Of a stretch of 64,000 bases of DNA, positions 7,241 to 21,456 are shown one piece after another. The notes beneath the pieces were generated by a model, which ran no database searches, had not been told where the DNA came from, and saw only the letters and a list, made by a program, of their open reading frames with translations. Made by a program: the position numbers and the translations under genes. How positions within the stretch are numbered: position 1 is the stretch's first letter; every line of letters begins with the position of its first letter. The DNA is from Eledone cirrhosa. Its lineage: Eukaryota. The stretch spans positions 1 to 64,000 of the forward strand of contig CAXHJY010001492.1 of NCBI GenBank assembly GCA_964016885.1, given 5' to 3'.

Positions 7241-7462
7241 CAATAATAATAAATGTAACGACTAAAATCCAAAGAGTGCTCCATAAGGATAAATATATAT
7301 CAAATATATAAGAACTCTACAACGAACATTTATTAAAATAACAGATTAAAGTTTAAGCAAAGAATCGATGCTTTCACCCTTAACGGGATCTAATGAAACT
7401 TTCACAAGATCCCGTTAAGAGTGAAAGCAGCGATTATTTGCTGAAACTTTAATCTGTTATTT
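7241..7462 (-). mobile_element. Family B (TA)n-embedded PLE-like terminus with hammerhead-like fold and about 55 bp fold-back inversion
   Basis: Inverted arms at 7337-7391 and 7407-7462. Homologous copies at 8311-8347, 11785-11890, 21285-21456 and 45637-45680. Confidence 0.75.
7348..7402 (-). ncRNA. Hammerhead-like three-way fold with variant core CAUUAGA
   Basis: Minus strand: AAAGTTT-CATTAGA-T CCC GTTAA GGG T-GAAA-GCA TCGATTCTT TGC-TT-AAACTTT. Confidence 0.55.
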
Positions 7463-8956
7463 GAATATATATATATATATATATATATATATGCATTTAT
7501 ATATATATATGCGTATATTTATATGTTTATATATATATTTTCGTTTATTTATATGTGTATATATATATGTGCATTTATATATATATATGCAGATATTTAT
7601 ATATATATATATATGCGTACATTTATATATATATATATATATATGCGTTCATTTATATGTATATATATGTATATATATATATATATATATGCATATTCAT
7701 TTATATATATATATGCGTTCATTTATATGTATATATATATATATATGCAAATATTTGCATATATATATTCATACATTTATATGTATATGTATATATATAT
7801 ATATATATATATGAATTTATATATATATATGCATATATTTATATATATATACATTTTATATATTTATATGTATATACATATATGCATATACATTTATATG
7901 TATATATATATATATATGTATATACATACATATATGTATATACATATATGCATATATTTTTATATATATTTATATGTATATATATATATGTATATACATA
8001 TATGCATATATTTTTATATATATTTATATGTGTATATATATATATATATATATTTATATGTATATATTTATATATATATTTATATGTATATTTATATGTA
8101 TATATTTATATATATATTTATATGTATATATTTATATATATGTATATATATATATATATATTCACATAGTTAAAAGAATAGAGGTGTAACATATTCATAT
8201 ATATATATATATACACATATATATATATATATTCATATATATATATACATATTCATATATATATATACATATTCATATATATATATATATATTCATATAT
8301 ATAAATATATAGTAATAATAATAAATTTGAAGACTAAAATCCAAAGCGCATATATATATATATATATATATATATATATATATATATATATATATATATA
8401 TATATATATATATATATATATATATATATAATATATATATATATTCATATATATATACATATGTATATATTTATATATATATATATATATTCATATATAT
8501 ATATATATATATTCATATATATATATATATTCATATATATATATATATATATATATGTGTGTATATATTTATATTTATATATATATATATATATATATAT
8601 ATATATATATATATATATATATATATTTATATATATATATATATATTTATATATATATATTCATATATATATATATATTTATATATATATTCATATATAT
8701 ATATATATTTATATATATATATATATATATATATATATATAAATATGTATGTATTTATATATTTATATGTATATATTTATATATATATATATATATATAT
8801 ATATATATATATATATATATATATATATATATATATATATATATATATATATATATATATATATATATATATATTTATATATATATATATATATATATAT
8901 ATGTATATATTTATATTATATATATATGTATATATTTATATATATATATGTATACG

Positions 8957-9087
8957 CTTTTACTCTTTTACCTGTCTCAGCCATCCGGCTGAGGCCATGC
9001 TGGGGCACCGCCCTTATTACTACACATTTTATCTACAGCCTGTATAGGTTGGCCCTGGTGTAAGAGGGAGCTTGTTGCTGCTGCCCT
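8957..9087 (-). mobile_element. About 130 bp retroposon 3' tail, inverted twin of 13981-14116
   Basis: Near-identical reverse complement at 13981-14116 and a partial copy at 39435-39483. Ends in (GTAAAAGA)n. Confidence 0.8.
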
Positions 9088-10314
9088 TATATATATATAT
9101 ATATATATATATATGTATATATATATGAATATATATATGTATAAATATATATGCATATTTATATATATATGTATATATATATATGTATATATATATATAT
9201 AAATATATATGCATATATATATATATATATATATATATATATATATATATATATATATATATATGTATATATATATATGTATATATATATATGTATATAT
9301 ATATATATATATATAAATATATATGCATATATATATAAATATATATGCATATATATATATATATAAATATATATGCATGATATATATTTATATATAAATA
9401 TATATGCATATATATATATATATATAAATATATATGCATATATATATATATATATATAAATATATATGCATATATATATATATATATAAATATATATGCA
9501 TATATATATATGTATATAAATATATATGCATATATATATATATATAAATATATATGCATATACATATATATGTATATATATAAATATATATGTATATATA
9601 TATGTATATATATATACATATATATATGTATATATATATATATATACATCTATATATGTATATATATATATATATATATAAATACATCTATATACATATA
9701 TATATGTATATATATATATGTATATATACATATATATATGTATATGTATATATATATATATGTATATCTATGTATATATATATGTATATATATATGTATA
9801 TATACATATATATATGTATATGTATATATATATATATTTATATGTATCTATATACATATATATGTATATATATACATATATAAACATATATATATATATA
9901 TATATATATATATATATACGTGTATATATATATTTATATGTATACATATATATATATATTTATAAGTATACATATATATATATGTATATATATACATATA
10001 TATATATATATATATATTTATATGTATACATATATATATATGTATATATATACATATATATATATATGTATATATATACATATATATATATATATATATA
10101 TATATATATATATATATATATATATATATATAGTGTAGGCACTATCCCCACACACGCCTGTACAAGAGACAACATGAGTCAGTGTGTCTGATGTTATATC
10201 AAAATTCAAGAATAACTTAATATCATATTTCCACAAAAGTTAGTTAATTTCTTGGCATATAATATATATACACCACGATATCCGATACATATACTGAGAT
10301 AATATATATATATA

Positions 10315-18077: not shown

Positions 18078-18203
18078 AACGAAGGAGCTGTGGTAAGGAA
18101 CTAGGTGGACCATAACGCACAAGAGTACACGATACTTTGGGTAGTAGAGTGGGTAATACGAAACTGATTGAGCTCTACCGTCGGGGCCCTGACTCTTTTC
18201 CTA
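18078..18203 (-). mobile_element. Family A copy: minus-strand tail joined to an inverted hammerhead half
   Basis: 18078-18158 is the reverse complement of the tail. 18159-18203 is cgaaactgattgagctctaccgtcggggccctgactcttttcc on the plus strand. Confidence 0.75.
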
Positions 18204-21200
18204 TATATATATATTATATATACAGAGAGGGAGAGAGAGAGAGAGAGAGACGTGTATCAATCTGCTGACACACGTTTCTTCAAAAGCGACCAAATAAATT
18301 AAAATACCCTCGTTAGCCTGGGGGGGGGGGGTCTGTGTGTGGGTGTGCTTGCCTCCGAATGTCCGTGAGTGTGAGTGTCTAAGTCCGTCAATTACCTTAA
18401 CTTTGAACCGAAATGAATCTACAAGAGACCAAGTCTACCCATAAAGTTATATTTCACTTCACTCACCAAACAAATACTACGCAAGGAAAAGTAAAAGAAA
18501 AATTACCCGAGTCCTACAAAAATATATCTCACTCCACCCAGTAAAGCAACTACCATCCCGTATAAATTGCTGTTATGGAAGTGATGAACATCATGTGGCT
18601 ACAGCCGTCGTTTTATATATATAAAAGAGTATTTATAGTTGTCATCGTTTCTTAAACACACAAAGACTCAAGAAATCTAGCATGGCCCGATCAATTATTA
18701 ATAATAAACGAGAAGAATAACATTCCATTGGTTCATATTGGCAACTTTGAATTCGATTTATATATATCTATCCGTGTGTATATGCCTGTACTTATGTATG
18801 TGTATGTGTACGAACGTCACTATATATGACTATTCTTTATTCAGAGCAACAGGTTTTGCGGGATATGTTGTATGTACAGCATTTAGATGTAACCTGCTTT
18901 ACAACTGTATATATATATATATATATATATATACACACACACACACATTAAAACAACGGAAGGCCGGACTGGAAAATTTGCTTTAGAATTTTAATTCCGC
19001 GAAAGCACTATACATATTTCGATGGCTCAGCTCAGTATGTAAATATATGTAAATATTTTTTATGTATTTATGTATGCATGTATGTCCGTATATCTCTGTA
19101 CACAGAAAAATACAGGCATATTTTCATATCTATCTATATATCTGTGTGTCTCTGTTTATTACTCTCTTTTTCTATGTCCATCTCTCTCTCTATATATATA
19201 TAGATGTGTGTGGGGTTGAATGGGGTGAGCGTGTGTTTCTATTTGTATCTATGTATAAATATACAATATGTATGTGTCGGCAAGTCATAGCATCATATGA
19301 TATGACAGCATCACGAAATCCAAAATTTCCAAATTTAAAGAATTTGAGAAAAGACACAGAGACATTTTGAAAAACGGAAAATTCATAAAGACCAAATTTA
19401 TTCTCCAAGAACGATAATGACATAATATTTAAAAAAATCCCATCTATATACGACTTAAAAGAGTTAATTATTTTGTAAACAATATTTACGTTTTAAAATA
19501 TAAAAAGCAAAAACTAACATCATTAAGGCAATAAAACCCTTTTAAATACATTAATTTATAATTTTAATGAATGTATTTATTTGACAAATATTTTTTACTT
19601 AAAAAACCTTAAAAGCATTTATATTATTAAAGTGCATTTATTTGATTTAGGATTTAAAAAAAAAAAAGTATTTCTTATAAAACATCTATTTATATTTTTT
19701 AAATATTTCTTTAATAAAGTACACCCTCGATGGGTTTAATAAACATATTTACATGTTTATTTATGTAAATAATATTTTCCCAAATAAACATTTTTTTACG
19801 ATTATAAATAAATGTTTTTAAAGTATTTTTTTACTACGAATTTTTATTAGAAAATATATAAAAATGTATTTTAAGGACATTTAAAAAAAAAAATATACTT
19901 TAGGTTTTTTATAATTTTCCATATTTTGAAATTCGATCTCATATGTGTAGGAAAATGTCATTTTAGGTTTTGTCGCACTAACCGTTGTATATGAACTATA
20001 CTTAGGGTTTCGCTCGATGGTTAGTCTTGTGTATATATATATATAGGTGGCGGGGGCGGTGCGTATACCGCCTTTATTTTAATATTATTTCTTTTCTTAA
20101 AATTCATATTCCCTTATATATATGTATATCTTATTTTTTTTTGTAGCGGGGGGGGGGGGGGGGTAATCTCAATTGTAAGAAATTATAGATACTTCCGCTC
20201 GTCTCTCGGAGCTTACTAGCGCTATACAGATGTTTAAATTGATCAAATAAACAAACAAATTAATAAATGAATATGCTGAAGCCTTCACCAGATATACATG
20301 ACGTATCTCATAAGTAAAGTTGGAAAGAGACGGAGGCAGTGAGAGTGGGAGTTTGGTTCCTTTGTGTTCGGACCTGGTATATATGTATATATTTATTTAC
20401 CACACATCAACTAAAGATGAAGCCAACCATAAGAATAAGTTCTCCCGCGTAGTTAACATGAAGCACGTCTTTGTCCCGACCACCGAAATAAAGCATTTCT
20501 TCTAAGATATTTTAAAAAAATACATTGAAATCTATCTAAAACAGAGAATGTCTGTCCACTTTTCACATTTCTATTATTTTGTTAACCCCCCACCCACCCT
20601 CAGTACAAACTGTAAATGTTTATATCGCAATAGTTATGGCGTTCAGTTTATGACAGTGTTCACGTGACATGTTTGTTTGGTGGAGCCATGTCGTCAATTC
20701 AATTTATGTCAGTGATCACGTGACACTTTTGTTTATATAGAACAACAATGAGTTGTGTGATTGCAAACACTGTATTTTTTCTTTTGTTTTTATGCGGGCA
20801 ATTTTTAGCAACGAACCGATAATGTATGGAATAAACAAAGATACATGTATCATTCATTATATATATATTATATATATATATATATATATATATATATATA
20901 TATTATATATATATTATATATATATATATATATATCTTTTCATATATTTCAGAATTTTGCTCGTGGGTGTGAAACGCTGCCCCCTTTCTTGACCAAGGCG
21001 ATAATAAAATGAGAAGAATACATAAAATTTGGCAGGAGAAATTATTTAAAGAAATGTCTCAATGGTTGCACAAATGGAGAGAGACAAGGCGACAACAAGA
21101 CAACAATCAATGTGTTCCTGTTTAAATAAGGACGGAAATTTTAAAATAAAAAATAGAATTGCCTCAACAAAGACGTCCTTACGTCATTGTATTGTGTTTT

Positions 21201-21284
21201 TGTTTTGTTTTTCTTGTCATTCACCCCTTCCTTAAGCCCTGAGGTTCCCGCTTTTTCTAGTTAGTGTGTATATATATATATATA

Positions 21285-21456
21285 GTAATAATAATAAATT
21301 TGAAGACTAAAACCCAAAGAGGACTCGATAAGGATAAATATATATCAAATATATAAGAACCTTAGAGCAAATATTTATTAAAATAACAGATTAAAGTTTA
21401 AGCAAAGAGACGCTGCTTTCACCCTTAACGGGATCTAATGAAACTAAACAAACCCA
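21285..21456 (-). mobile_element. Family B copy with the same CAUUAGA hammerhead-like fold (21395-21445)
   Basis: Minus strand: AGTTT-CATTAGA-TCCCGTTAAGGGT-GAAA-GCAGCGTCTCTTTGC-TT-AAACT. Flanked by (TA)n on both sides. Confidence 0.75.

What the first reader, a model, noticed from the sequence alone, without database searches (positions are those of the whole stretch)
7348..21445. Hammerhead architecture with a conserved non-canonical core CAUUAGA (family B)
Two independent copies (7348-7402 and 21395-21445, minus strand) keep stem I (AGTTT/AAACT), stem II (CCC/GGG), GAAA, stem III (AGCA/TGCT) and exact hammerhead spacing. The 7 nt core reads CAUUAGA instead of CUGANGA, and position 17 is U. 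C3, G8, A9 and G12-A15 are retained while U4, G5 and A6 are all replaced identically in both copies, whereas the stem III loop varies. Established mutagenesis says G5 loss is strongly deleterious. This is either a new catalytic variant or a catalytically dead fold kept as a protein-binding or structural element in a once-mobile family.
Basis: partly seen in the sequence, partly recalled or inferred. Interest (0 to 1): 0.82.

Follow-up and report, generated by a model that had tools for sequence, protein, structure and literature searches.

The report
Retrotransposon hammerhead with one altered base
The two odd hammerhead-shaped RNA motifs are worn leftovers of a very abundant Penelope-type jumping gene; the family's own core differs from the textbook ribozyme at a single base (U4 to A) in about 20,000 copies, and the two extra changes seen here likely arose after insertion and are predicted to kill cleavage.

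Summary
Both motifs are in the sequence as described, but CAUUAGA is not the family's core. Of 20,547 exact genome-wide matches to the motif's frame, 19,559 read CAGAAGA, 92 CUGANGA and 6 CAUUAGA, two of them these copies. G5 and A6 are kept; only U4 is replaced, by A. The motif sits in the pseudo-LTR of a Hydra-clade Penelope-like retrotransposon with an open frame of about 713 codons (RT plus C-terminal GIY-YIG). The U·U pair under stem II and U17 are published Hydra-clade traits, and sister families carry the same fold with canonical cores. The two copies share no other change, and copy 1's own inverted arm reads CACAAGA, so GA→UU is likely post-insertion decay. What is left of interest is U4A, fixed through at least two amplification waves. 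I did not find it in the papers I could search; one key paper was unavailable. Its activity is untested. The scan earlier noted a different non-canonical Penelope hammerhead in another genome, not this one.

The parts
7350..7400 (-). Hammerhead motif, copy 1 (stem I 5' strand starts at 7400, C3 at 7395); core CATTAGA, family core CAGAAGA
   Evidence: differences from family
7240..7400 (-). 5'-truncated direct copy of the element's 3' end: hammerhead plus ~110-nt tail ending in (ATT)n next to (TA)n; 14 differences in 158 nt from the family majority
7400..7470 (+). Inverted, tail-less second arm of the same insertion; core reads CACAAGA (G5C), stem I 5' strand incomplete
   Evidence: (hairpin z -19)
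21395..21445 (-). Hammerhead motif, copy 2 (C3 at 21440); core CATTAGA
21285..21445 (-). 5'-truncated copy 2 of the element's 3' end, between (TA)n runs; 7 differences in 160 nt from the family majority
11783..11889 (+). Tail-only fragment of the same family (starts after the hammerhead)
45630..45680 (-). Fragment of the same family holding only GAAA, stem III and the stem I 3' strand, inside (TA)n
8312..8345 (-). Last 34 nt of the same family's tail, inside (TA)n

Best explanation
The two motifs are 5'-truncated 3' ends of an abundant Hydra-clade Penelope-like retrotransposon whose pseudo-LTR carries a type I hammerhead with the core CAGAAGA, and their CAUUAGA core is a rare GA-to-UU change that likely arose after insertion and is predicted to abolish cleavage. 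Shown: family membership, the ORF, the core counts, two 3' end points about 88 nt apart, inverted arms, (TA)n flanks. Inferred: transcription likely starts at the first base of stem I; the element's RT likely starts inside the RNA at either end point and copies back to the RNA's start, which would give the ~70-nt and ~160-nt copies and inverted pairs seen here. A working ribozyme would cut after U17, 46 nt from that start. U4A is predicted to weaken this cut (I put about 60% on weak or no activity), and the family multiplied anyway, as expected if uncut RNA is the insertion template.
For: Core counts: 19,559 CAGAAGA, 92 CTGANGA, 6 CATTAGA of 20,547. Samples not chosen on the core agree: 41 of 42 tail-selected copies that span the core, 14 of 15 motifs found within 400 nt before an ORF among 30 ORF loci, 91 of the first 100 of 2,053 older-subfamily matches. 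L091 is pLTR-ORF-pLTR with the motif in both repeats and RWR, DKT, YRDD, CxCX5C, a GIY-YIG-like motif, CxxC and CxH in a 712-codon frame, the Hydra traits of PMC8557442 section 11. The ORF is 44% identical over 96% to P0013, which by eye is nearly the published Hydra-2_Amil protein. In the paper's table all 26 Hydra rows have CTGANGA, 14 have the U·U pair and 10 have U17 (my count). Sister families in this genome show the same layout with different, paired stems and canonical cores. The two window copies share only G5T/A6T among 14 and 7 differences; copy 1's inverted arm has G5C and A6; L047, another CATTAGA locus, has a second arm with the family core. Double changes are equally rare at other GA sites of the motif: 10 at G5A6, 17 at G8A9, 11 at G12A13. 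G5 changes cost over 100-fold and A6 10-100-fold (PMC4075628). Catalytic mutants of a Penelope hammerhead did not affect insertion in vitro and RT started internally at two sites (PMC11167929). An extra G stands before stem I in 53 of the first 100 of 2,210 copies lacking the genomic T there (my count).
Against: Two of only six CATTAGA copies lie 14 kb apart on one contig, which independent mutation does not readily give. UU is 6 of 10 doubles at G5A6 but only 3 of 17 and 2 of 11 at the control sites, so a general GA-to-TT mutation bias explains it only in part. Rfam gave no hammerhead match for a family copy (9 matches at E<=10), and Pfam and PDB gave nothing for the ORF. The hammerhead fold is not the lowest-energy fold (-4.8 vs -8.8 kcal/mol), though this is also true of the canonical sister family (-3.7 vs -5.6). 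No sister lineage close enough to date U4A was found. No RNA or cleavage data.
Confidence: 0.8

Rival explanations
1. The family's CAGAAGA core is a working natural variant, possibly helped by the element's protein, and the fold is kept by selection on cleavage. (Compatible with the window copies being dead.)
For: Between the young (39 copies, 1.9% from own majority) and older (20 copies, 3.3%) subfamilies there are 0 differences at 54 core and stem positions, 2 at 23 loop positions and 10 at 138 upstream positions (Fisher p 0.033). U4 was the one conserved core base never hit among 50 escape mutants (PMC4075628); a natural U4C variant supports viroid infectivity (PMC3088659); a Penelope hammerhead cleaved only with its protein (PMC11167929).
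Against: The 89-nt tail also shows 0 differences (pooled p 0.11), so the whole 3' end may be constrained for RT binding, not catalysis. All single mutants of the CUGA turn had low activity in a full mutant scan (PMC9901934 passage). A4 adds a pair to a competing helix that hides GAAA (MFE -8.8 vs -7.8 for a natural U4 copy). No pile-up of 5' ends at the cut site: 0 of 90 at positions 40-47, though I saw none by eye in the canonical sister family either.
Confidence: 0.3
2. The shared UU in the two window copies has one origin: a short gene-conversion tract between them, or a minor source copy carrying CAUUAGA. Still non-functional.
For: 2 of 6 genome-wide copies are 14 kb apart; the UU share is higher here than at control GA sites (4 of 8 outside the window vs 5 of 28, Fisher p 0.086).
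Against: No other shared difference; position 81 differs in both copies but to different bases; copy 1's inverted arm, presumably from the same RNA, lacks UU. The other four CATTAGA copies have different 5' junctions and different private changes.
Confidence: 0.15
3. One reading: CAUUAGA is a conserved new catalytic core, or a dead fold conserved for binding.
For: Identical core in two copies with intact stems.
Against: 6 of 20,547; none among the 15 motifs before an ORF or the 42 tail-selected cores; same order as background double mutants.
Confidence: 0.02
4. The motif is not hammerhead-derived; it is a chance likeness inside a palindromic repeat.
For: The descriptor hits 9 of 60 shuffles; no Rfam match; the fold is not favoured.
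Against: It lies about 199 nt before the ORF in the pLTR, where two other Hydra-type families of this genome have canonical hammerheads; 176,324 matches against 1,838 controls for the canonical U·U layout (redundant counts).
Confidence: 0.03

Closest known systems
Hydra clade of Penelope-like elements and their pLTR hammerheads (Craig et al. 2021, PMC8557442; e.g. Hydra-2_Amil, Hydra-1_Obim, Penelope-2_HM)
   Same: Single ORF with RWK-type, DKT, CxCX5C, C-terminal GIY-YIG, CxxC and CxH motifs; (TA)n flanks; pLTRs, inverted 5'-truncated copies and a tail; type I hammerhead with U·U under a 3-4 bp stem II and often U17.
   Different: Core position 4 is A, whereas all 26 listed Hydra rows have U. 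Stem III has a 9-nt loop, not the 1-3 nt palindromic cap, so dimer formation may not be needed. The tail is ~88 nt, not 30-40. A different family from Hydra-1_Obim (different motif and N-terminus); no match to two motif strings in the supplement.
Poseidon PAc element of Anolis (Frangieh et al. 2024, PMC11167929)
   Same: Hammerhead at the pLTR-ORF junction; two 3' end points that define a tail; AT-rich targets.
   Different: Different PLE clade; its hammerhead overlaps the start codon, here it lies ~199 nt upstream; its hammerhead was shown to cleave, this one is untested.
Natural hammerhead core variants (Perreault et al. 2011, PMC3088659: U3-A8, A6C, U4C, U10.1-U11.1; Cervera and de la Pena 2014, PMC4209133: U3-A8 in PLEs)
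   Same: A natural departure from CUGANGA; U10.1·U11.1 is described there as the best-tolerated mismatch.
   Different: The terms U4A and U4G do not occur in the Perreault main text (figures not seen); the variants there are rare, here U4A is the majority state of a ~20,000-copy family.
Non-LTR retrozymes (PMC7229834; bioRxiv 2026.07.22.740005)
   Same: Type I hammerhead in an animal repeat related to PLE pLTRs.
   Different: Retrozymes are non-coding tandem repeats; this family has its own ORF and occurs as dispersed truncated or inverted copies.

Membership tests
Penelope-like element (EN+) | Single ORF with RT and GIY-YIG endonuclease | tested here: met
   712-codon frame with YRDD and NIVY...YIG; 1,600 homologues at E<=0.001 among 8,000 scored, best hit carries PF01541. 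Pfam and PDB searches of the ORF itself were blank.
Penelope-like element (EN+) | pLTRs from partial tandems, inverted 5'-truncated copies, tail | tested here: met
   L091 and L092 direct repeats around the ORF; inverted copies in most of 14 fetched loci; two 3' end points at L091 1219 and 1307 (table 7).
Hydra clade | RWK-type motif, DKT, CxCX5C linker, CxxC and CxH around E and N, C-terminal EN | tested here: met
   RWR 37, DKT 115, CNCRNRADC 566, CDLC 661, CKH 689 against section 11.
Hydra clade | Grouping with published Hydra proteins | tested here: inconclusive
   44% to P0013, which matches Hydra-2_Amil by eye. No tree with the published sequences or an outgroup was built; my tree holds only unnamed homologues and warns of long branches.
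Hydra clade | Absence of the CCHH motif, CxC motif and IFD | not tested
   Only a loose regular expression was run; it cannot place the PLE CCHH motif.
Hydra clade | Insertion into (TA)n | tested here: met
   (TA)n flanks in most of 30 loci and in the window copies; not compared with a background rate in this TA-rich genome.
Type I hammerhead ribozyme | Three stems around the core in type I order | tested here: met
   Stems of 5, 3 and 4 bp; same layout with other paired sequences in sister families. Not the lowest-energy fold.
Type I hammerhead ribozyme | Core C3 U4 G5 A6 N7 G8 A9 / G12 A13 A14 / A15.1-U16.1, H17 | tested here: not met
   Family: all but U4 (A). Window copies: U4, G5 and A6 all changed.
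Type I hammerhead ribozyme | Match to an Rfam hammerhead model | tested here: not met
   No hammerhead among 9 matches at E<=10 for L091 1090-1230; none among the 150 of 513 window matches shown.
Type I hammerhead ribozyme | Self-cleavage after H17 | not testable with these tools
   No RNA run listed; needs an assay.
Non-LTR retrozyme | Non-coding tandem repeats each with a hammerhead | tested here: not met
   Family has an ORF and dispersed copies.

The most novel reading that the evidence does not exclude
A young, very abundant retrotransposon has fixed U4A in its hammerhead, and this CAGA-turn ribozyme still cuts, with or without the element's protein; placed at the very start of the transcript, it would remove the element's own cap, and U4A would tune that self-brake rather than remove it.
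Probability: 0.2. Interest if true: 0.6.

Novelty: new variant of a known kind. Interest (0 to 1): 0.33.

Why it matters
The headline claim, a hammerhead conserved without G5, fails. What remains is a natural experiment on an open question: what hammerheads do for Penelope-like elements. One family spread to about 20,000 copies with A at position 4 while its neighbours in the same genome kept U. If the RNA is inactive, this supports the view that cleavage is dispensable for spreading in vivo. If it is active, it adds a natural core variant that standard CUGANGA searches miss. Either answer comes from a simple assay. The start-site signal at stem I, seen in two families, also suggests what the cut would remove.

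Tried and rejected
Canonical subfamily: 713 matches to CTGANGA plus this stem II looked like one, but 28 of the 30 loci read are chimeras made at inversion junctions and lack stem I; the 92 with intact TTT are 0.45%, and 1 of 100 older-subfamily copies has U4. Three CTGAAGA copies in the 'young' group all came from L093, which I had picked for that core, and were discounted. Other families with a non-U position 4: none stood out in the first 100 of 7,265 matches (control 2,827; stem II starting with C excluded). Pol-zeta-type GA-to-TT bias (PMC4158752, abstract only) as the full cause: only partly supported, 9 of 36 doubles outside the window are TT (p 0.015) but 5 of 28 at control sites alone (p 0.19). 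Cleavage footprint in 5' truncation points: none, and not discriminating (90 of 17,057 tail matches read, all from the start of C1). Expression: no RNA holder listed. Cross-species test: runs X5 and X6 (organisms B, C) cover the motif with no change listed at position 4, but hold only 2 and 8 contigs, so I do not count them. Closer sister lineage: the 30 of 71 hits to P0002 that I read all looked like this family. Splice-acceptor and trans-splicing ideas for the junction at stem I were considered and dropped for lack of a shared upstream exon. Naiad clade was my first guess and was rejected on domain order and motifs. The tandem-change spectrum used a tail-less reference, and the long-stem energy used a register off by one; neither is used. 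The distal stem had the same one-base offset, with no differences at the positions affected. Rfam hits in the window shown are microsatellite noise.
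Full report
Observation. Both motifs are present on the minus strand, at 7350-7400 and 21395-21445, with the stems, spacing, CATTAGA core and U17 described. They were the only two hits of my loose type I descriptor in the window, but the descriptor gives at least one hit in 9 of 60 shuffles and neither copy folds better than shuffles. Copy 1 is the right arm of a ~65-bp inverted repeat (hairpin z -19). Three more fragments of the same repeat lie in the window.

The family. 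The window is C1519:1-64000 of a 3.0-Gb assembly; from size and repeat content I guess a cephalopod, which I did not test. Thirty best genome hits aligned as an inverted 5' arm, the motif and a tail ending next to (TA)n, with core CAGAAGA in most (these were chosen by a query that held the inversion). Exact counts for the 29-nt frame with four free core bases: 20,547 in all, CAGAAGA 19,559, CTGANGA 92, CATTAGA 6 including the window's two. Samples not chosen on the core agree: 41 of 42 tail-selected copies spanning the core (90 copies read of 17,057 matches), 14 of 15 motifs before an ORF and 91 of the first 100 of 2,053 older-subfamily matches. The family therefore keeps G5 and A6 and replaces only U4. 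An apparent canonical subfamily (713 matches) is mostly inversion-junction chimeras, 28 of 30 read.

The parent element. Stretches between paired motifs hold one long ORF. L091 is pLTR-ORF-pLTR with the motif in both repeats. The protein has RWR, DKT, YRDD, CxCX5C, a C-terminal GIY-YIG-like motif, CxxC and CxH, the traits given for the Hydra clade (PMC8557442 section 11). It has 1,600 homologues among 8,000 scored; one, P0013 (44%), matches the published Hydra-2_Amil by eye. Pfam and PDB were blank. Of 30 ORF loci read, 13 have open frames of 700 codons or more, with median pairwise difference 2.5% over 45 equal-length pairs, so the family is young.

Is the motif a hammerhead by descent? It lies about 199 nt before the start codon. 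Two other Hydra-type families in this genome have canonical hammerheads in their flanking repeats. The layout CTGANGA-T-stem-T-GAAA gives 176,324 matches against 1,838 controls (redundant counts), made of several families whose different stems all pair. In the published table all 26 Hydra rows have CTGANGA, 14 have U·U under stem II and 10 have U17 (my count); U10.1·U11.1 is a known tolerated mismatch (PMC3088659 section 8). So only A4 is unusual. Against: no Rfam hammerhead match, and the fold is not the lowest in energy, as is also true for the canonical sister family.

Origin of CAUUAGA. Copies 1 and 2 differ from the family majority at 14 of 158 and 7 of 160 positions and share only G5T and A6T; copy 1's inverted arm reads CACAAGA. 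Double changes number 10 at G5A6, 17 at G8A9 and 11 at G12A13, so six CATTAGA copies are of background order. GA-to-TT is a favoured tandem mutation in humans (PMC4158752, abstract); here it is 6 of 10, 3 of 17 and 2 of 11, which supports a bias only in part. Why two of six sit 14 kb apart is unexplained; a short conversion tract remains possible. G5 changes cost over 100-fold and A6 10-100-fold (PMC4075628, part 1 of 2), so these copies are predicted dead.

How the element likely works. Copies end at two points about 88 nt apart (table 7), like the two internal RT start sites of the Anolis element (PMC11167929, parts 1-2 of 4). Of the 19,559, 2,210 have intact AGTTT but not the genomic T before it, and G is the added base in 53 of the first 100 (my count); in 18 of 21 such loci read, the adjoining arm does not supply the G. 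In the canonical sister family 52 of 62 contexts lose the upstream sequence within 14 nt of the core (one is a variant upstream, not a truncation), and a TATA box lies about 31 nt before stem I. I infer that transcription starts at stem I and that the G records the cap (RT copying of caps is recalled knowledge, from no call). The ribozyme would then cut 46 nt from the start. No 5' ends pile up at that site (0 of 90 at positions 40-47). In the Anolis system, catalytic mutants did not affect insertion and cleavage needed the protein, so a weakened hammerhead need not stop a family from spreading.

Is U4A active? For: no difference at 54 core and stem positions between two subfamilies against 10 of 138 upstream (p 0.033), U4 tolerant in a phage screen, a natural U4C viroid variant. 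Against: the tail is equally unchanged (0 of 89, pooled p 0.11), all CUGA-turn single mutants were low in a full scan (PMC9901934 passages), and A4 extends a competing helix. I put weak or no activity at about 60%.

Novelty. PLE hammerheads and Hydra elements are known (PMC4209133 parts 1-2 of 4; PMC8557442 passages, section 11 and supplement parts 2 and 7 of 59). Searches for U4A or CAGA-type cores found nothing relevant in the listings (titles and abstract starts only), nor did passages of PMC11014351, PMC7229834 and PMC6765202 or part 1 of 5 of bioRxiv 2026.07.22.740005. The paper on PLE hammerhead variants by Lunse et al. was not available, figures were not seen, and Repbase and Dfam were not checked, so prior description is not excluded. 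Earlier scan notes: none for this place or sequence; one on a different variant in another genome. Verdict: new variant of a known kind, interest 0.33.

Noticed in passing
window 44578-44625 (-); decayed relatives near 29645 (+) and 58578 (+): Copy of a sister family with the same U·U layout and a canonical CTGATGA core; its tail motif has 12,082 exact matches. Stem I changes in a compensating way between its subfamilies. Its ORF was not located.
   Followed up: partly
window 1881-1930 (+) and 35631-35674 (-): Two canonical-core type I hammerheads with minimal or palindromic stem III, likely from other Penelope-like families.
   Followed up: no
window 10334-10476, 11409-11624, 12130-12240, 18079-18163, 22098-22189: A further repeat family with GAAA plus a paired stem III and UC, in truncated and inverted copies that lack the first core half.
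   Followed up: no
window 44034-44221, 55432-55622, 46490-46607, 58458-58570, 51890-51983: A dispersed repeat with a tRNA-like 5' part and an (ATT)n end, probably a SINE; the tRNA likeness is by eye.
   Followed up: no
L342-L411 and L412-L441: In two families many copies begin at the first base of hammerhead stem I with an extra G, and one family has a TATA box about 31 nt upstream; this suggests the transcript starts exactly at the ribozyme.
   Followed up: partly
G000 genome-wide: Canonical Hydra-type hammerhead layout is extremely abundant: 176,324 redundant matches against 1,838 controls.
   Followed up: partly
L218-L241, L242, L245, L246: Two more Hydra-type families with intact ~714-719-codon frames and canonical hammerheads with long stem II.
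   Followed up: partly
G000:C1:53355222-53369062: A local tandem cluster of another family's hammerhead in which most listed copies read CAGACGA, i.e. U4A again, likely one mutation spread by local duplication.
   Followed up: no
C1519 and C990: Three of the six CATTAGA copies lie on high-numbered, probably unplaced contigs; copy 1 is more diverged (9%) than typical copies (2-3%).
   Followed up: no
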